A DNA stretch of 42,489 nt from a virus (lineage: Duplodnaviria; Caudoviricetes): IMG/VR virus record IMGVR_UViG_3300037602_000024, positions 1-42,489 of that record. One strand, given 5' to 3'. The position numbers were made by a program, and so were the translations under genes. Below, piece by piece: positions 17,817 through 32,839 of this stretch; the first letter of the stretch is position 1, and each line of letters begins with the position of its first letter. The notes under the pieces were generated by a model that was not told where the DNA came from, searched no databases, and saw only the letters and a list, made by a program, of their open reading frames with translations.

Positions 17817-20042
17817 TCACATCTCACTTTCCATCAGGGAAGACGCTTTAACCACGTGCTTCCGGATTTCGCCCAGCGGGTCTTCCGCCCGCTGGGCCAG
17901 GTCCATCAAAGCGTCGTTAATCAACGCATATTGCATGTGCCCGTGCACCTTGATCCGTTTGCTCCAACAGTGCAGGCCGCAATCCATCATCACGCGGCGG
18001 ATTTCGTAATCGCTATCATGAACGCGCCCCTGGACCGCGCTTTTGGCCCAGCCAACAACGTCCTTGATCAGAAGCGCGCCGGGCGTTCCCCGGTCCTTCA
18101 ACTGTTCCGCCAGCGCCGCCGCTTCCCGCTGGGCTTCGGACCGCGAGCCCTCAATGAGCTCCCGCTTCCTCTCCGTCATCGGCGCTCGCTCGCCTCGCGC
18201 CACATAGTCGCCATAGTTCTCCGCCCAATAGCGGACGATCGACAAGCCGCCGCCCTGCGCCCAGGAGCGAAGCTCTGCGAACTTCTTGCGCGGCCAAGGC
18301 ACTTCCGTCACTTCCGGATAGAACCAACGCCGGTCATCGTTCTCCATCTTGAGCGCGCGCATCGAATTCGAGCAGGCCACCACGTGGCACCAGTTGTCGA
18401 TCACGTACTGCCGCACGTACTTCTGATTAACCGTGATGTCCTGATCGGTGATAATCGACTTCAGCGCATGGTACGATTTCCAGGACGATCCGGAATAGAT
18501 TTCATTGACGATCGCGAGGCGCTTGTGGGCCACCCAGTCGTTGAAATCGCTCCCAATGTCCTTCTCGGACGGATAGCCCGCATTCTGCTCCCCGACCAGC
18601 GGCGCTAGGATATGCGCGCCCAGCGTCGTCTTGCCCATCCCCTGCCGTTCGCTCACCAGCAGCAGTCCATAGTCCATCCGGATTTCCGGGCGCGCAATAA
18701 GCGTAGCGCACCACCGCTCAACCTGCCGCCTTTCTTCCGGGTTGACGAAAAGATACCGCAGGAACTCCAGGAAGGGCTCCGGATCGCCGGGAATAGCCTT
18801 GATGGTCGTCGGAACATGAGTGTTGATCGCGTTCGCGCCGCGGTAATCGACCGTCAGTCCTTTGTAGTCCGGGCGGTAGCAGATGCGAGCCGTTCGCCCC
18901 TTGTACGCTTTTACCAGGAGCTTGGCCGTGTCGTTCACGTGGGAGAAGCCCGCAACCACCTTGTTGAAGACGCTCTCCGTCCGCATGATTTCGGGCATCT
19001 CCTTGCAGACGAAGGCGTCCGCTTCCTCCACATACGCCCACATTCCCTTGAAGCCCTCGCGAAGCGCCGCGACCGGGCGTCCCTTTCCATTCGGGTTCGG
19101 GATCATGTCGGTGGCCCAGGTGGCTGGACTTAGGAGCGCGCGCATAGACGGCCCAACATAAAAGCGCCGCCCTTCCGTCGTCTTGAACATCGTTTCCGGG
19201 AACGGGTCCGCAAGATCGAACGACACCGGGAAGCGGTCATTGAATTCAACGGAGAACGCCTTGATGCGGATCGCGCGGGATATGGATGCGATCGCTCTGC
19301 GCCCCGGCTCATCATTGTCCGCGACGATGTAGGCGCGTTCCACACCGTTCTTCGCCAGCACGCTCCAATCCGTCCTGTTTGGGTTCATCGCGCCGCCGAT
19401 CCACCCGACGTGCGCCGCCCCGGAAAGTTCCTCCCCCCAGGGATGTGCCGCCCGCGCGTCGCGCGCCTCCTTCGTCGCGCCCTCCACCAGCCACCGGCAA
19501 TAAGCTGCCGCCTTCGCGCCTTCGTGGATGAACACCGTGCGGTGAGCCGGTAGCTGATCGATGCCATAAAGCGGCAACTCGCCATCCGGCTCGCACATGC
19601 GCCAAACGTCATCATCCCAATACGTCCAAGGCACATAATTCTTGGCCAGCGCGCCGTCTTCGCCTTCCCTTTCGATCCGCACCTGAACCATGATAATCTC
19701 GCGGCCATCGACCGTCCGGAACTCGAATATGTCGCGCTCCGCCGCGCTCCTCATCATGGGAGGCGGATTGATGATCCGGGAGAGGCGCTTGATCCGCGGG
19801 AACTCGACGCGAGCCCATGCGTCCATGATCGTCGCCTGCTCTAACTCCGTCGGGGAGTGCTCCAGCGAAGAACAGCTGATTTCACCCGTCGCGCTGAAGC
19901 GGATGACCGCAACATCGTTCCAGTAATTGCCGATCGTCTCGCGCACAACCGCCGTCTTCAGCGATCTTGGTTCAGCGCCCACGCGGGCCAGGTAGTCGCG
20001 GACTGCCGTTATGTCTGTAAGGGAGCTAATTCGCTCAGTCAT
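17817..20042 (-). CDS. Primase-helicase (TOPRIM-like N-terminus, SF3/D5-like ATPase C-terminus)
   Basis: FIHEGAKAA and VADNDEPG TOPRIM-like motifs; QGMGKTT Walker A, IVNE Walker B, CSN motif C, DDRRW. Confidence 0.85.
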   Translation of the reverse strand: MTERISSLTDITAVRDYLARVGAEPRSLKTAVVRETIGNYWNDVAVIRFSATGEISCSSLEHSPTELEQATIMDAWARVEFPRIKRLSRIINPPPMMRSAAERDIFEFRTVDGREIIMVQVRIEREGEDGALAKNYVPWTYWDDDVWRMCEPDGELPLYGIDQLPAHRTVFIHEGAKAAAYCRWLVEGATKEARDARAAHPWGEELSGAAHVGWIGGAMNPNRTDWSVLAKNGVERAYIVADNDEPGRRAIASISRAIRIKAFSVEFNDRFPVSFDLADPFPETMFKTTEGRRFYVGPSMRALLSPATWATDMIPNPNGKGRPVAALREGFKGMWAYVEEADAFVCKEMPEIMRTESVFNKVVAGFSHVNDTAKLLVKAYKGRTARICYRPDYKGLTVDYRGANAINTHVPTTIKAIPGDPEPFLEFLRYLFVNPEERRQVERWCATLIARPEIRMDYGLLLVSERQGMGKTTLGAHILAPLVGEQNAGYPSEKDIGSDFNDWVAHKRLAIVNEIYSGSSWKSYHALKSIITDQDITVNQKYVRQYVIDNWCHVVACSNSMRALKMENDDRRWFYPEVTEVPWPRKKFAELRSWAQGGGLSIVRYWAENYGDYVARGERAPMTERKRELIEGSRSEAQREAAALAEQLKDRGTPGALLIKDVVGWAKSAVQGRVHDSDYEIRRVMMDCGLHCWSKRIKVHGHMQYALINDALMDLAQRAEDPLGEIRKHVVKASSLMESEM

Positions 20043-22897
20043 GATTTTGCCTCATCAAGATCGCCGATGTATCGCGCTTGTTTGATGGAAAGAATTCTAA
20101 AGTCTCCATCCATCTCGAACATCTTTCCTTTTAGTGCCCAGATAGACTTGCCTGGTCTGCCTTTGTCGACGATTTGCCTGCCCGCGCGATCATAGTTGAA
20201 GCGGTTGACTTTCGCGAGCACAGTGCCAGTGTCGTCCATCACTCTCAGCTGAAGAAATTCTTCTTTTCCGTCAGCAATTCTTTGTCCTCCTCGCTTTGCA
20301 ACATTCACTTCTTCATTTTCGTTTCGCGGGTTTATCTTGATAGGAACGGCCCAGACCATGACATCGTCTCCTCGCGCTTCAGAGATTGGCGTTGGTTGGG
20401 TGACGATGTTTCGCGCGAGAGGGTCTGGCATTATTTTCGCTATTGCGTCTCGCACAGGCCACAAGCTGTCGATGTCCGTTTTCGGGTCTTTCAGCAGTTT
20501 CTCTGTCCGCGGCGGCAAGGGCTCTCCCCGCTTCCGCGCGCCGATTATGCTGTTGACCAACTTTGGGCCAATCCCTTTGACATTCGACAGCGGCCCAATC
20601 AGGACGCGCTTGCCATTCCGGACGCCCGCTGTCCACACGTCGGTGGAAAGCTCCGGATCAACCGGAACATAATCGTAACCTTCCGAGGCCATCTCGCGCA
20701 GCAGTTCAATTTGCCGCTGGGGATCGGTTTCGTGGGTCAATGTGGCTGCGGCGAACTCAAACGGAAAATGAGCCTTGAGCCAGCAGCACCAATAGCTGAT
20801 ATAGCCGTAAGCGACCGCGTGGGACTTGTTAAACGCCCATGAGCCGAAGGTGTTGATCTGGTCCCAAATCTCGGCTGCAGTCGCCCTCTCCACCCCATGC
20901 GCTGAAGCGCCCTGGACAAATCTTTGCTTGAACTGCTCAAAGAATTCATTCCCGAGCCGTCGTGACATCGCCTTTCTGATCAAGCTTGTGTCTTCCCAGG
21001 AGAGCCCGCCCATTTCCCGAACGACCCTCATGACCTGCTCCTGATAGACCACGACGCCGTAGGTTTCCTTCGTGAGCTCACCGAGAAGCGGGTGAAGCGC
21101 AGCAGGAGCCTCTCCCCCGCTGCGCCTTCTTGCCCACTGGCCCGAGCCTCCTGTGGCCAGTGGGCCGGGTCTGGCGAGAGCAGAGATCGCGACTATGTCG
21201 TCGAAGCGATCAACCTTTATCTGGCCGGTGAGCGATTGCAAGGCATTCCCGTTCCACTGGAAGATGCCAGAGAACTCTTTGCGGTTTAGAACGTCGAAGG
21301 CTGCTTGGTCGTCGATCGGAACGGCCTGAAGCTCCTCCATCGTCATCCCCGCCATCTCCAGCGCGTCTTCGAAGACGGAAAGCTGCGTCAGCCCCAAGGC
21401 GTCGATTTTGAGAAGGTTCAGCGGCCCTTCCGCGTCGTACTTATCGCACATGGCTGCGCCGGTCCGATGGTCAACGGCCACATATTCTTCGATCGCCCGG
21501 TCAGCGACCACAACGCCCGCGGCGTGCTGGCTGTAGTGGCGCGGGTGGCCTTCCATCCGGGTGGCAATGATGAATTCAGGAAATTCCTCAAGAAGCTCCC
21601 GCCCCGCCGAAGAGCCATTCAGCGCGTCTTCCAGCGTATCGGTCGCGCGTGAGTCTGCCGAAGAACGATCAACCAGCGCGTCCGCGATCTTCTCCGCTCG
21701 CCACCGCGGCACGTCTAGCGCTGCCGCGGCTTCCGCCATCGCGCTCCGCGCCTTGAACATTGCGACGGTGCCGAGACGCGCCACCCGCTCCGGACCATAC
21801 ACCTTCCGCATGTAGTCGAAGACCATGGAGCGCTGCTGATCGCTGAAATCAATATCGATGTCGGGAAGGTCCGCGCGGTTGATGTCGATGAACCGCTCAA
21901 AGATCAGGCCGTGCGGGATCGGGTCAACCGTCGTGATCCGGAGAAGATAGCACACCAGCGATCCGCAGGAAGAACCGCGCGCCGGACCAACGGCCATCTT
22001 CTTCCTGGCCCACTGGCAAACGTCCGCCACCAAATAGAAGTAGTCCTCAAACTCCTTTTCCGCGATCAGCGTGAGCTCGCGATCCAGCCGGGCGCTGTAG
22101 ATTGGATCGTCCAAATTGACGCCAAGCTCCTTCGCGCCGTCCTCACACATCTCGCGCAAGGGCTTTGGGCGCGGCGGGCGCACCAACTCCGCGCGCTTCA
22201 GCCGGGCGTTGCAGGAAGCGAGCATGTCCACCGAATTCTGCTGGGCTTCGACGCGCTCTCCTTCCGTCAGGCCGGTGCGAGCCGTCGCGGCCAACCACTC
22301 TCCCGCGTCCAAAATGTGCTGAGGATACGATTGCGTGGAAGCGCCGCGCCCGCAAAGGACTTCATAGAAAGCACGATCCTCCGCGGTAGGATAGACATTG
22401 TCACTCACCGCTGCGAACGGCAAGCCTTTCTCCTTCGCCACAGCGATGTGACCGCGAACGCTGGCCGGAGAAAGCCCAAAAAACAGACCCTCCTGTGGCT
22501 CGATAAGGTCTAGCTTACATCGGTGTCCCGCGATCTTGAAGACGCCACTAGCGGCCAGCGCCTGGGCGTAGGTGATGATCGGCTGATAGCGGAATTGCTG
22601 GGTGGCGAGGGAAATGAGACGGTTGATTGGCGCAACGTCATCGATTGCCAAGAACGTCCAGAAGTCGGTGGCTGGCTTCTTTTCTTCGTAGCTCTCCGCG
22701 ACGGCTAGCTCCACGCCGAACACCGGCTTCATGCCTTCCTTCTCACAGAGCGCATTCCACCGGACCCAGCCGAAGGTTGAGGCGCGATCGGTGATTGGTG
22801 CGGCGGGATAGCCGCACGCCTTGAGGCGCGCCATCACTTCCGGGAGCGCGCCCGCGGCTGCCCGGAAGCTGTAGCCAGTTCGGACGCGGGCGGTCAT
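20039..22897 (-). CDS. dnaE: DNA polymerase III alpha-like (C-family) polymerase
   Basis: GPARGSSCGSLVCYLLRITTVDP, FERF, PDIDIDF, HAAGVVV, LLKIDALGL, VYQEQVM, AFNKSHAVAY. Confidence 0.95.
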   Translation of the reverse strand: MTARVRTGYSFRAAAGALPEVMARLKACGYPAAPITDRASTFGWVRWNALCEKEGMKPVFGVELAVAESYEEKKPATDFWTFLAIDDVAPINRLISLATQQFRYQPIITYAQALAASGVFKIAGHRCKLDLIEPQEGLFFGLSPASVRGHIAVAKEKGLPFAAVSDNVYPTAEDRAFYEVLCGRGASTQSYPQHILDAGEWLAATARTGLTEGERVEAQQNSVDMLASCNARLKRAELVRPPRPKPLREMCEDGAKELGVNLDDPIYSARLDRELTLIAEKEFEDYFYLVADVCQWARKKMAVGPARGSSCGSLVCYLLRITTVDPIPHGLIFERFIDINRADLPDIDIDFSDQQRSMVFDYMRKVYGPERVARLGTVAMFKARSAMAEAAAALDVPRWRAEKIADALVDRSSADSRATDTLEDALNGSSAGRELLEEFPEFIIATRMEGHPRHYSQHAAGVVVADRAIEEYVAVDHRTGAAMCDKYDAEGPLNLLKIDALGLTQLSVFEDALEMAGMTMEELQAVPIDDQAAFDVLNRKEFSGIFQWNGNALQSLTGQIKVDRFDDIVAISALARPGPLATGGSGQWARRRSGGEAPAALHPLLGELTKETYGVVVYQEQVMRVVREMGGLSWEDTSLIRKAMSRRLGNEFFEQFKQRFVQGASAHGVERATAAEIWDQINTFGSWAFNKSHAVAYGYISYWCCWLKAHFPFEFAAATLTHETDPQRQIELLREMASEGYDYVPVDPELSTDVWTAGVRNGKRVLIGPLSNVKGIGPKLVNSIIGARKRGEPLPPRTEKLLKDPKTDIDSLWPVRDAIAKIMPDPLARNIVTQPTPISEARGDDVMVWAVPIKINPRNENEEVNVAKRGGQRIADGKEEFLQLRVMDDTGTVLAKVNRFNYDRAGRQIVDKGRPGKSIWALKGKMFEMDGDFRILSIKQARYIGDLDEAKS

Positions 22898-26312: not shown

Positions 26313-26798
26313 TCAGTATCCTCCGTGCCGGACTTGCCAGCAGTTAAAGCCAAGCTCCCGCCAGCGCTCAACCATTCCGTCGCGATCCTCCAGGATGAAG
26401 GCGACGGCGCTTTTCACGTCCACTTCTTCGTGGCCCAGATGCCGCTGCTGAGCGGCGTGCCATTCAGAAAGAAGGCGCGGTTTCAGGTCGCGATCCGGCG
26501 TGTAATCCCAGTCTGGACGCATCAGGAGCGCATCGATGTAGCCGGACAGGGCGTGCTCGCGCAGCCACTTCTCCGTGAGCCCTCTGTAGGCTTCATTCCG
26601 CCCGGTCAGGATGATCACCCGGTAATCGATCGGCACGATGGCAGCGATGAGCTCAGCCACGTCTTCGTGTACGGGATCATCCGCGCCCATCACGTGAAAA
26701 TCGTGCCACTGTCCGATTTGGGCCAGGTGGACACGGTAACGGGCGTCGGAAAGCGTTCCATCAAGGTCCACCACAATCGTCTTTCGCATTGCGCTCAT
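26313..26798 (-). CDS. HAD phosphatase (polynucleotide kinase-phosphatase C-terminal-like)
   Basis: VVDLDGTL, LTGR, LLMRP, K, EDR motifs. Confidence 0.88.
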   Translation of the reverse strand: MSAMRKTIVVDLDGTLSDARYRVHLAQIGQWHDFHVMGADDPVHEDVAELIAAIVPIDYRVIILTGRNEAYRGLTEKWLREHALSGYIDALLMRPDWDYTPDRDLKPRLLSEWHAAQQRHLGHEEVDVKSAVAFILEDRDGMVERWRELGFNCWQVRHGGY

Positions 26799-29879: not shown

Positions 29880-30060
29880 TTCAGCTGGCGTAGCCCAGCA
29901 CCCTACCTATGAATGAAAAACTTTCCGGTGAAAACATTTTTCAGGCTTTTTCGAAGGCACGCGAAAAGCGAGCCTGTTAACCTATTGTTTTCATTAGATT
30001 AAAAAAAATTCAAAAAGTGTGAAAAAAAGTGTTTTCTTTTTCTGCCGCTTCAGGCACAAA
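29880..30060. promoter_or_regulatory. AT-rich divergent promoter region with phased A-tracts
   Basis: Point where the two gene arms diverge; A-runs start at 30001, 30012 and 30022; AAAAAGTGT occurs twice. Confidence 0.65.
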
Positions 30061-30207
30061 GAGATTGTGAGGACGACGAAACGCCTCGCACGGGACGGAC
30101 CGCCCAAGCATAACGGTCCACCTGGCCGGTAGGATCGGACGACGGGAGCGAAAGCAGAAGACCCCCCGACGAAAAGATGCCGACACCCTGGTTTCCGGCA
30201 GGTCAAA

Positions 30208-30263
30208 CGAAACGGACGCAAGTCCGTCGCTGGGGATGGTACCCCATGCCTGATGAGATACCA
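30208..30263 (+). ncRNA. Type II hammerhead ribozyme 1 (predicted cleavage after C30228)
   Basis: C-GAAA, stem III CGGAC-GCAA-GTCCG, UC, stem I GC.TGGGG/CCCCA.GC, CTGATGA-G; loop TGGTA pairs with 3' TACCA. Confidence 0.85.
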
Positions 30264-30333
30264 AAATGTCAAGCCTGCCTCTCGGCAGCGTCCCACACTG
30301 GGAAGCGGAGAAGGCAAGGCAAGGGAGGCCAAA

Positions 30334-30603: not shown

Positions 30604-31173
30604 ATGACCATCCTTACTTCCAGCCAGATTATGAAGCTCATCGCGAAAGCCGAAGGCGCTGAGCCGAAGCGCGCCTCAACGAAAGAAGCCGCCATCCGGC
30701 GCTTCAACAAGACCATGGCCGCGCAGTTCGGCCTGGACTTCTTCGCCGCGGAGAAAATCCTGAACGCGGGCAGCTACGATCTGGCGCTGAACGCGCTGGG
30801 CCTGGCCGCTGATCCGGACTGCGGCATTGAGGAAGAATACAATGAGGCAGAAGAAGAAAAACTGCTTCAGCGCGGACAAGAAGCCTTGGGCGAATACGCT
30901 CACAGCGACAAGGCGGCAGTCCCTAAAGCGAAAGGCGGCAAGCGCCGCGGTTCGCTCGCCGGGAAGGCGTTCCAGCTGGCGGCTGGCGCAACCAACCCCT
31001 ACCGCGAAAACACGCTGTCGCACGCCGCTTTCGAGCTAGTCCGCGACAACGCAGGGATTACCTTCGAAGGCTTCGTGGAGAAAGGCGGGCGCGTCCGGAC
31101 GCTGCAGGAAGACGTGAAAGCCGGGCGGGTGATCGAAGTCAAGAAGTTGATCACCGATCCGGAAGCATTCTAA
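30604..31173 (+). CDS. Early hypothetical protein (189 aa; acidic linker, basic C-terminal domain)
   Basis: AAGGA RBS; typical high-GC codon usage. Confidence 0.8.
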   Translation: MTILTSSQIMKLIAKAEGAEPKRASTKEAAIRRFNKTMAAQFGLDFFAAEKILNAGSYDLALNALGLAADPDCGIEEEYNEAEEEKLLQRGQEALGEYAHSDKAAVPKAKGGKRRGSLAGKAFQLAAGATNPYRENTLSHAAFELVRDNAGITFEGFVEKGGRVRTLQEDVKAGRVIEVKKLITDPEAF

Positions 31174-31174
31174 A

Positions 31175-31236
31175 GGCGAAACGCGGGTGCTTGCCCGCGT
31201 CTGGGCGGGCGGTTCCCGGCCGCTGATGAGCCAACC
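31175..31236 (+). ncRNA. Type II hammerhead ribozyme 2 (predicted cleavage after C31201)
   Basis: GGC-GAAA, stem III CGCGGGT-GCTT-GCCCGCG, UC, stem I TGGGCGGG/CCCGGCCG, CTGATGA-GCC; loop GGTT pairs with 3' AACC. Confidence 0.9.
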
Positions 31237-31251
31237 TAGAAGGATTTAAAA

Positions 31252-32217
31252 ATGGCACACCAAGTTGAAACGATGGCCTATGCGAATGAAGTTCCGTGGC
31301 ACGGCCTGGGCGCGCGCGTTGACCAAAGCGTCACGCCAGACGAAATGCTGAAGGCGGCTGGTCTGGATTGGGAAGTCAATCTGTGGCCGCTGACCGCCAG
31401 CGAGCCGGAAGGCGAAGAAAGCATCAAGGTTCCTGGCCGTTATGCTCTGGTGCGCTCAACCGATCGCAAGGTGCTGACCGTGACTGGAAAAAGCTGGAAG
31501 CCGCTCCAGAACCGCGAAACGCTCGAATTCATGCGGAACTACGTGGAAGCCGGTGCCGCCACGCTGGAGACGGCTGGCGCGCTTCGTGGCGGGCGCGTCG
31601 TTTGGGGGCTGGCGCGGCTCAACCATGAATTTGAAGTCGGCAAAGGCGATCGCGTCAAAGGCTATCTCCTGATCACTTCGCCGCACGAAGTCGGAAAGGC
31701 AATCACCGTCCGCGCCACGACGGTCCGTGTCGTCTGCGCCAACACGATGGCATTGGCCAACCGCACCGGGACGGTCCACTACCGCCAGGCCCACACCAGC
31801 GCCTTCGACGTGGACGCCGCCAAGGAGGCGATCGGAGACGCGCATGAGCAGCTGGCGATCGCGGAGAAGAACGCGAAAATTCTCTCCAAGCTCCAGCTTT
31901 CGCTTGATGACGCGATCGAAAAGGTGCTGGCTCCAGTCTTCGTTCCGCAGGCGCTGAAGGACGATGACTTGATGGCGTCGCTCAAGGTGCCGGAGAGCAT
32001 GCCGAAGACGCTCCAAGAGATTATTGACTCCATCGAGAGCGCGCCGGGCGCGGCGGAAATTGCGGGCACTGGCTGGGGCGTCCTGAATGGCGTCGCGCAC
32101 TGGGCGGATCACGTCCATGGCCGCGGGCAAGCGTCCCGCATGTATAATTCCTGGATGGGGCAAAACGCCGTCCGGAAGCTGGACGTTGAGCGGAAGCTGC
32201 TCGAACTGGCGGAATAA
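31252..32217 (+). CDS. DUF932-family phage/plasmid protein
   Basis: MAHQVETMAY..EVPWHGLG, AGLDWEV, ETAGALRGGR.VW, VRVVCANT, GTGWG.LNGV motifs. Confidence 0.9.
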   Translation: MAHQVETMAYANEVPWHGLGARVDQSVTPDEMLKAAGLDWEVNLWPLTASEPEGEESIKVPGRYALVRSTDRKVLTVTGKSWKPLQNRETLEFMRNYVEAGAATLETAGALRGGRVVWGLARLNHEFEVGKGDRVKGYLLITSPHEVGKAITVRATTVRVVCANTMALANRTGTVHYRQAHTSAFDVDAAKEAIGDAHEQLAIAEKNAKILSKLQLSLDDAIEKVLAPVFVPQALKDDDLMASLKVPESMPKTLQEIIDSIESAPGAAEIAGTGWGVLNGVAHWADHVHGRGQASRMYNSWMGQNAVRKLDVERKLLELAE

Positions 32218-32434: not shown

Positions 32435-32839
32435 ATGAACACCCGGTGGACGGACCAAGAGAAAGAAACGCTGCGGCAGATGTGGAATGCCGATGAGCCG
32501 ATCGCCGCAATCATTTGCGCGCTGGATCGGAACAACAATCAGATCGTCGGCCAGGCTTACCGAATGAACCTGCCGAGGCGGAACGCCATCAAAGGCAAAG
32601 GGCATCTCCCCAGGAAGGCAGACGTCCCTCGAAAGAAGGCTTGGAAGCCTCCGCACTATGTTGCGCCGCTGGTCGTGCGCTCCTGCCAGTGGCCGCATGG
32701 CGATCCGACCAGCCCGGACTTCCATTTCTGCGGCGAAGAAGTTGTGGAAGGGAAGCCTTATTGCGACAAACACTGTGCCGTCGCCTACACCAAGTATGAG
32801 ACAGCCGCGGACGCTCAGCGCGCGGTGGAGGAAGAATGA
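32435..32839 (+). CDS. gcrA: GcrA-family cell-cycle regulator homologue
   Basis: WTDQEKETLRQMW...NQIVGQAYRMNL N-terminal domain; CQWPHGDPTSPDFHFCG...PYCDKHCAVAY C-terminal domain. Confidence 0.9.
   Translation: MNTRWTDQEKETLRQMWNADEPIAAIICALDRNNNQIVGQAYRMNLPRRNAIKGKGHLPRKADVPRKKAWKPPHYVAPLVVRSCQWPHGDPTSPDFHFCGEEVVEGKPYCDKHCAVAYTKYETAADAQRAVEEE

What the first reader, a model, noticed from the sequence alone, without database searches (positions are those of the whole stretch)
31175..31236. Hammerhead ribozyme 2 fills the gap before the DUF932 gene
Seen: it starts 2 nt after the upstream stop. Stem II is GGC/GCC, followed by GAAA, a 7-bp stem III, GUC ending at 31201, an 8-position stem I with one G-G mismatch, and CUGAUGA. 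Loop GGUU pairs with AACC 31233..31236 just before the RBS. All stems and the pseudoknot differ in sequence from ribozyme 1 while keeping their pairing, which argues for selection on structure rather than a recent duplication. Inference: folding or cleavage may tune DUF932 translation or mRNA stability.
Basis: partly seen in the sequence, partly recalled or inferred. Interest (0 to 1): 0.8.

Follow-up and report, generated by a model that had tools for sequence, protein, structure and literature searches.

The report
Phage hammerhead ribozyme before DUF932 gene
A type II hammerhead ribozyme motif (a self-cutting RNA) fills the gap before a phage DUF932 gene and is kept in related phages, where it likely cuts the early message into pieces with hairpin-protected ends; this kind of element has been known in phages since 2011.

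Summary
Confirmed: 31175-31236 is a type II hammerhead with an intact core, a loop I/3'-tail pseudoknot and a predicted cut after C31201, in a 42-kb siphophage early operon. An equivalent copy precedes DUF932 in 9 of 14 close relatives, with compensatory stem changes. The class and the layout were described by Perreault 2011. This scan has noted them on other DNA many times (54 findings).

Best reading: constitutive cutting splits the early transcript. The DUF932 message would get a 5'-OH end capped by stem I and the pseudoknot, like a natural RiboJ insulator. A translation switch is not supported, because the pseudoknot never overlaps the Shine-Dalgarno site (0 of 111 copies). Against strong activity of this copy: its G-G mismatch favours a slipped, inactive stem I by about 3 kcal/mol in a model without the pseudoknot. 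No RNA data exist.

The more novel part lies upstream. Ribozyme 1 follows a conserved, covarying ~120-nt leader RNA with no Rfam match. In three other contigs an unknown folded element takes the ribozyme's place behind that leader.

The parts
31175..31236 (+). Type II hammerhead ribozyme (HH2): stem II 31175-77/31230-32, GAAA 31178-81, stem III 31181-88/31193-31200, stem I 31202-09/31215-22, core CUGAUGA 31223-29
   Evidence: sequence; Rfam RF02276 36.1 bits; descriptor; covariation in orthologues
31199..31201 (+). GUC triplet; predicted cut between C31201 and U31202
   Evidence: position follows from the hammerhead consensus; cleavage not tested
31211..31236 (+). Pseudoknot between loop I GGUU (31211-14) and 3' tail AACC (31233-36)
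   Evidence: sequence; 4 or more pairs in 25 of 25 clade copies; needed for fast cleavage in Perreault 2011
31205..31219 (+). G31205-G31219 mismatch in stem I; also enables a 4-nt slipped stem I and a hairpin between the 3' strand of stem III and the 5' strand of stem I
   Evidence: the position is paired in 10 of 10 DUF932-proximal orthologues; present in runs X1-X3
31240..31254 (+). Shine-Dalgarno-like AAGGA and start codon of DUF932, 50 nt after the cut
31252..32217 (+). DUF932 (PF06067) gene, 321 aa, function unknown
   Evidence: fold search gave nothing
30604..31173 (+). 189-aa gene of unknown function whose stop codon abuts HH2
   Evidence: C-terminal part also in L086, L094, L105
30334..30552 (+). 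72-aa first gene of the early operon (start chosen by its Shine-Dalgarno motif)
   Evidence: no Pfam match
30208..30263 (+). Type II hammerhead HH1 with a one-pair stem II; predicted cut after 30228
   Evidence: Rfam 31.4 bits; descriptor
30086..30206 (+). Conserved non-coding leader RNA with covarying helices and no Rfam match; HH1 would release it as an RNA of about 160 nt
   Evidence: no Rfam hit at E<=1
30030..30062 (+). Promoter-like T-tract and A-rich box shared with relatives (inferred early promoter)
   Evidence: seen in relatives; the sigma-70 scan found 0 sites, so this is inference

Best explanation
A type II hammerhead motif fills the whole gap between two early phage genes and likely cuts the shared transcript after C31201 without needing a signal, so that DUF932 would get its own message with hairpin-protected ends. 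Shown by sequence and comparison: the full core, three stems, the pseudoknot, the position between stop codon and ribosome-binding site, and conservation in relatives. Follows from hammerhead chemistry: a 2',3'-cyclic phosphate on the 5' piece and a 5'-OH on the 3' piece. Follows from type II geometry: the 5' piece (973 nt if HH1 also cuts) ends in the stem III hairpin, and the 3' piece starts at its first base with stem I and the pseudoknot, 50 nt before the AUG. Inferred: those ends slow host nucleases and uncouple the decay and translation of DUF932 from the upstream genes, as the engineered RiboJ insulator does. This copy may be slower than its orthologues.
For: Conserved before DUF932 in 9 of 14 loci at >=55% protein identity, against 0 of 33 at 45-55% and 1 of 218 below 45%. 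A supported DUF932 clade of 15 rows holds 10 with the ribozyme (quick tree). 14 of 21 pairs show two-sided changes and 88% of cells pair; 0 of 500 shuffles reach the cell counts, 10 of 500 reach the pair count. Relatives carry up to five type II copies between consecutive small genes (L255, L257). A stop codon ends within 8 nt of the GAAA in 92 of 131 IMG/VR copies, against 459 of 14,800 random positions and 28 of 470 other CGAAA sites. A Shine-Dalgarno motif and start follow in 125 of 170 IMG/VR and 24 of 25 clade copies. Stem III folds as a 3'-terminal hairpin in 25 of 25 clade copies, and stem I pairs from the first or second base in 25 of 25 isolated stem I pieces. HH1 cuts upstream of the first gene, so separating genes cannot be the only purpose. 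Perreault 2011: tandem prophage hammerheads cleaved in vitro and in E. coli. Clifton 2018: RiboJ raised mRNA about twofold and protein two- to tenfold.
Against: No cleavage or RNA data for this phage. In the nested ViennaRNA model the catalytic register (-28.4 kcal/mol) loses to a 4-nt slipped stem I that swallows core bases C3 and U4 (-31.5). The active ensemble lies 4.5 kcal/mol above the whole ensemble, fourth worst of 25 clade copies (median 2.7); the unmodelled pseudoknot duplex is worth about -3.8. The score is under Rfam's gathering cut-off. The covariation set was picked by a descriptor that demands stems, so high pairing is partly built in, and the pseudoknot helix is only 67% paired in the MAFFT alignment. 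5 of 15 rows in the clade lack a hammerhead before DUF932, so the gene can do without one. The 2019 review says the purpose of such ribozymes is not established. Tight packing against the stop codon may be simple genome compaction.
Confidence: 0.6

Rival explanations
1. This copy is slow or conditional. The G-G mismatch lets stem I slip, and when a ribosome terminating on the upstream gene blocks the 5' strand of stem III, an alternative hairpin hides the cut site, so cleavage would depend on upstream translation.
For: The slipped register is favoured by about 3 kcal/mol. The stem III-3'/stem I-5' hairpin is -14.7 kcal/mol, the strongest of 25 clade copies, and reaches probability 0.94 when the sequence 5' of 31187 is removed. 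The stop codon is 1 nt from stem II.
Against: Not conserved. The other clade copies give -1.6 to -9.1. In 170 IMG/VR copies native halves pair less well than shuffled combinations (199 of 200 permutations as strong or stronger); the clade result (4 of 200) includes this outlier. Pseudoknot and core energies are not modelled.
Confidence: 0.18
2. Cutting destabilises the DUF932 message (as the glmS ribozyme does through RNase J) and acts as a timer that shuts early genes off.
For: glmS precedent (review passage). That alphaproteobacteria have RNase J, and that it attacks 5'-OH ends, is recalled and comes from no call; the host itself is only inferred from a GcrA domain.
Against: The 3' product has no unpaired 5' tail. 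The same cassette occurs in cultured Streptomyces phages and many unrelated contigs, so it is not tuned to one decay system.
Confidence: 0.1
3. Folding or cutting switches DUF932 translation by hiding or exposing the ribosome-binding site.
For: The pseudoknot ends 15 nt before the AUG, at the edge of a ribosome footprint. Predicted opening energy falls by 1.7 kcal/mol after cutting here.
Against: The pseudoknot never overlaps the Shine-Dalgarno motif (0 of 23, 0 of 88). Median change is 0.4 kcal/mol, under 1 in 16 of 24. Spacing to the start varies from 47 to 105 nt in the clade.
Confidence: 0.07
4. HH1 and HH2 excise a 973-nt two-gene RNA with 5'-OH and cyclic-phosphate ends that a host RtcB-type ligase circularises.
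For: The ends are ligase-compatible (established chemistry; RtcB recalled). Product size.
Against: Perreault 2011 looked for spliced or circular products and found none. No RNA ligase among the 61 window proteins scanned. The genes between ribozymes differ from phage to phage.
Confidence: 0.05

Closest known systems
Type II hammerhead ribozymes with a loop I/3'-tail pseudoknot (Rfam RF02276; Perreault et al. 2011, PMC3088659; part 2 of 8 and passages read, supplements term-searched)
   Same: Core, topology, pseudoknot of 4 or more pairs, clusters flanking single genes or short blocks in phage transcripts, one-pair stem II variants, and proposed processing of polycistronic RNA.
   Different: The record has direct terminal repeats and no integrase among the 61 proteins scanned. 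[quoted passage not shown] This copy has a G-G mismatch that favours a slipped fold.
Type II hammerheads of cultured Streptomyces phages (e.g. phiELB20, NC_041849.1; unannotated in the record)
   Same: Four descriptor hits between small genes; the copy at L588:2502 has nearly the same stem I and loop.
   Different: Stem I has C where the window has the mismatched G. Different host phylum and neighbouring genes.
RiboJ insulator (engineered hammerhead plus hairpin; Clifton et al. 2018, PMC6206723, abstract and passages read)
   Same: Self-cleavage just upstream of a ribosome-binding site leaves a defined 5' end with a hairpin.
   Different: Engineered, derived from a satellite RNA, and placed after a promoter. 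The stabilising effect was measured in E. coli, not for natural phage copies.
glmS ribozyme (passages of the 2019 review, PMC6765202)
   Same: Self-cleavage in front of a bacterial coding sequence, giving a 5'-OH message.
   Different: Ligand-gated and destabilising; different fold; no ligand pocket or fixed partner gene here.

Membership tests
Hammerhead ribozyme, type II (RF02276) | Core C3 U4 G5 A6 N7 G8 A9, G12 A13 A14, A15.1-U16.1, H17 | tested here: met
   CUGAUGA 31223-29, GAAA 31178-81, U31200, C31201
Hammerhead ribozyme, type II (RF02276) | Three stems, with pairs closing the core (10.1-11.1, 1.1-2.1, 15.1-16.1) | tested here: met
   G31230-C31177, U31202-G31222, A31181-U31200
Hammerhead ribozyme, type II (RF02276) | Stem II open, stems I and III closed by loops | tested here: met
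Hammerhead ribozyme, type II (RF02276) | Loop I/3'-tail pseudoknot of 4 or more pairs | tested here: met
   GGUU/AACC; 25 of 25 clade copies have 4 or more pairs; 2 of 5 pair columns with two-sided changes
Hammerhead ribozyme, type II (RF02276) | Rfam gathering score (37 bits) | tested here: inconclusive
   36.1 bits, E 1.9e-7; orthologues reach 37.6-52.3, one 36.7; the model does not score the pseudoknot
Hammerhead ribozyme, type II (RF02276) | Catalytic fold is the favoured fold | tested here: inconclusive
   slipped register favoured by about 3 kcal/mol without the pseudoknot; pseudoknot duplex -3.8
Hammerhead ribozyme, type II (RF02276) | Self-cleavage after H17 | not testable with these tools
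   needs an assay or RNA reads
Translational riboswitch-like control | Alternative pairing that hides the Shine-Dalgarno site | tested here: not met
   0 of 111 overlaps; median 0.4 kcal/mol change
Known Rfam families, for the leader 30086-30206 | Match to a covariance model | tested here: not met
   none at E<=1 in the window or E<=2 in 7 loci that hold it

The most novel reading that the evidence does not exclude
The two hammerheads are parts of a phage RNA-processing toolkit. HH2 builds a stable 5' end for DUF932, and HH1 matures an uncatalogued ~160-nt structured RNA from the start of the early transcript. In three other contigs the hammerhead slot behind that leader is filled by an unknown hairpin element with two conserved flanking motifs, a candidate new class of self-cleaving RNA.
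Probability: 0.2. Interest if true: 0.75.

Novelty: new member of a known kind. Interest (0 to 1): 0.32.

Why it matters
The biological job of phage self-cleaving ribozymes is still open (review passage). This locus adds numbers to the question. The cassette is packed between stop codon and ribosome-binding site in most phage copies, it never hides that site, and type II geometry would give both products a terminal hairpin. That points to end protection, and it is testable in cultured Streptomyces phages that carry the same cassette. By itself the ribozyme is ordinary. The neighbouring leader RNA and the element that replaces the hammerhead in relatives are the parts that could be new.

Tried and rejected
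- First DUF932 scan returned only distant relatives (37-47% identity); 0 of 80 had a type II hit, nor did Aminobacter phage Erebus or Rhizobium phage RHph_I1_18.
- RNA evidence: no RNA holder listed; the four runs laid were DNA contigs.
- DUF932 fold: model from a 6-sequence alignment, pLDDT 63, pTM 0.46; no PDB match at E<=0.001.
- 189-aa protein: atlas hits under 0.9 and TM under 0.5, so no assignment.
- The III-3'/I-5' hairpin as a conserved switch was rejected.
- I first read the minimum-energy fold as the active fold; it is the slipped register.
- Element before DUF932 in L329: 9 IMG/VR pattern hits, none sharing the flanks.
- Leader as twister, pistol or HDV-like RNA: no Rfam match; by-eye comparison with recalled consensus features did not fit.
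- Leader not found in cultured phages by blastn, nor in 6 supplementary files of Fremin 2023; 3 files were not searched, so it may be listed there.
- The broader leader pattern gave 71 loci and no new copy.
- The sigma-70 scan found no promoter.
- The careful tree did not finish; only the quick tree is used.
- Literature searches listed no paper that tests these ribozymes during infection or links them to DUF932; subscription journals are mostly missing from the library.

Full report
Setting. The window is a whole virus record of 42,489 bases with direct terminal repeats (127 nt). It has terminase, portal, capsid, tail tube and tape measure genes, a DnaE-type polymerase and a GcrA-domain protein: a siphophage, probably of an alphaproteobacterium (inferred). 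At about 29.9-30.0 kb the genome diverges. A rightward unit runs: promoter-like box, non-coding leader, hammerhead HH1 (30208-30263), a 72-aa gene, a 189-aa gene (30604-31173), HH2 (the finding), DUF932 (31252-32217), small genes, GcrA and an SNF2 helicase.

Observation. Rfam's type II model matches at 36.1 bits, just under its cut-off of 37 (E 8e-4; 1.9e-7). A descriptor finds exactly two hits in the window, and 1 loose and 0 strict hits in 40 Markov copies. The G-G mismatch is real: contigs of runs X2 and X3 cover it with no difference. The statement that all helices differ from ribozyme 1 is overstated: three pairs of stem III, the closing pair of stem II and three of four pseudoknot pairs are shared.

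Conservation. One search found 275 distinct DUF932 loci, of which 265 had at least 150 nt upstream. A type II hammerhead cuts within 400 nt upstream in 9 of 14 loci at 55% identity or more, 0 of 18 at 50-55%, 0 of 15 at 45-50% and 1 of 218 below. Two of the five misses in the top bin are partial genes. In a quick tree of 63 rows, a supported clade of 15 holds the window and nine other carriers, and five without; a type III scan found nothing in those five. L489, found later, is a further carrier. On an alignment of 11 DUF932-proximal copies plus HH1, 88% of cells pair and 14 of 21 pairs have two-sided changes; slid controls give 29-44%. The copies were chosen by a descriptor that demands stems, so the percentage is partly built in; the two-sided changes at a fixed gene position are the informative part.

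It is a general cassette. Relatives carry up to five copies between consecutive small genes. One pattern gave an estimated 1,100 IMG/VR stretches, of which 125 were fetched; these held 170 distinct copies, four from a contig already in the clade set. A stop codon ends within 8 nt of the GAAA in 121 of 170, and a Shine-Dalgarno motif with a start follows in 125 of 170. In loci long enough for a control the figure is 92 of 131, against 3.1% of random positions and 6% of other CGAAA sites. I scanned 105 of 142 downstream proteins, leaving out 10 DUF932 proteins and 27 from short loci. Of the 91 from IMG/VR, 81 have no Pfam family, two are DUF932 and two ArdA. Cultured Streptomyces phages carry the same cassette; phiELB20 has four in 5 kb.

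Mechanism. Hammerhead chemistry (established) gives a cyclic phosphate on the 5' piece and a 5'-OH on the 3' piece. In type II only the short stem II joins the two pieces. The upstream message would therefore end in the stem III hairpin (-13.8 kcal/mol here), and the DUF932 message would begin with stem I and the pseudoknot, 50 nt before the AUG. HH1 lies before the first gene, so it separates no genes, which favours making defined ends over mere gene separation. The engineered analogue RiboJ raised mRNA about twofold and protein two- to tenfold in E. coli (PMC6206723, abstract and passages); a modelling paper also assumes faster decay of uncut mRNA (PMC7536230, passages). That natural copies stabilise their messages is my inference. 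A translation switch is not supported: among copies with a 4-pair pseudoknot and a start, the pseudoknot ends at or before the Shine-Dalgarno motif in 23 of 23 and 88 of 88, and cutting changes the opening energy by a median 0.4 kcal/mol (1.7 here; pseudoknot not modelled).

Against this reading. In the nested folding model this copy prefers a stem I slipped by four bases, which pairs core bases C3 and U4 (-31.5 versus -28.4 kcal/mol). Its active ensemble is 4.5 kcal/mol uphill, fourth worst of 25 (median 2.7; IMG/VR median 1.6). The pseudoknot, about -3.8 as a free duplex, and core contacts may repay this, and HH1 scores 5.0 by the same measure. G31205 also creates a -14.7 kcal/mol hairpin that hides the cut site if the 5' strand of stem III is blocked, as a terminating ribosome would do; this is not a conserved feature. 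Activity of this copy is therefore likely but not certain.

Known status. Perreault 2011 (PMC3088659; part 2 of 8, passages and a supplement term search) reported type II hammerheads, the pseudoknot, one-pair stem II variants, clusters flanking genes in prophages, cleavage in vitro and in E. coli, and no circular products. The 2019 review (PMC6765202, passages) repeats the processing idea and calls the purpose unresolved. The scan's own index holds 54 similar findings on other genomes and none on look-alike DNA. Verdict for the finding: a new member of a known kind.

What lies beside it. The leader 30086-30206 is 71-77% alike to non-coding DNA in relatives. A covariance model built from five copies found it in further contigs. 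On nine sequences fitted to the model, 19 of 28 pairs have two-sided changes (such alignments lean towards the model), and helices anchored on the fixed loops pair in all five full copies checked. It has no Rfam match and no blastn match in cultured phages. It was not found in 6 supplementary files of Fremin 2023 (PMC10690425, passages read; 3 files not searched). Behind it stands a type III hammerhead (L088/L090, L489 by descriptor; L257, L581 by eye), the type II HH1 (window), or in L573, L580 and L586 an unknown element; L491 shows none of these. These leads carry the novel case, but they rest on few sequences and no experiment.

Scores. Interest 0.32; best explanation 0.6; novel case probability 0.2, interest if true 0.75.

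Noticed in passing
window 30086-30206 (+); L088/L090, L257, L489, L491, L580, L586, L581, L573; partial in L320: Conserved non-coding leader just after a promoter-like box, with fixed loops and covarying helices (19 of 28 pairs with two-sided changes in 9 sequences fitted to the model, 0 of 500 shuffles; anchored helix table). No Rfam match.
   Followed up: partly
L580:2600-2675 (+), L573:1605-1665 (+), L586 just after the leader (-): An unknown element (short conserved motif, variable hairpin, second conserved motif, possible pseudoknot) lies between the leader and the ribosome-binding site, where other phages have a hammerhead. No Rfam match. Candidate self-cleaving RNA, 3 sequences only.
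   Followed up: partly
window 30208-30263 versus L090, L088, L489, L257: At the same position behind the leader, relatives carry a type III hammerhead with a one-pair stem II; the window has the type II permutation with the same one-pair stem. This suggests a natural switch of topology (L257 read by eye).
   Followed up: partly
L248/L318 and L329, just upstream of DUF932: Clade members without a hammerhead have other structure in the gap: two strong hairpins (L248, L318), or a hairpin with a possible pseudoknot that is partly repeated before the previous gene (L329).
   Followed up: partly
L125, L145, L139, L155: Among 91 proteins after hammerheads in IMG/VR pattern loci, DUF932 occurs twice and the antirestriction protein ArdA twice; 81 have no Pfam match.
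   Followed up: no
L588 (Streptomyces phage phiELB20, NC_041849.1:45748-50811): Four unannotated type II hammerheads between small genes of a cultured phage; 48 Streptomyces phage records match the query in part.
   Followed up: partly
window 26313-26798 (-): Stand-alone polynucleotide kinase phosphatase domain (PF25109) next to thymidylate synthase; a role on cyclic-phosphate ends is conceivable, but nucleotide metabolism is more likely.
   Followed up: no
window 30266-30325 (+): Long imperfect hairpin (-27 kcal/mol) between HH1 and the first gene, not found in relatives.
   Followed up: no
window 32435-32839 (+) and 20039-22897 (-): GcrA-domain regulator, which suggests an alphaproteobacterial host, and a DnaE-type DNA polymerase in a 42-kb siphophage with a 127-nt terminal repeat.
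   Followed up: no
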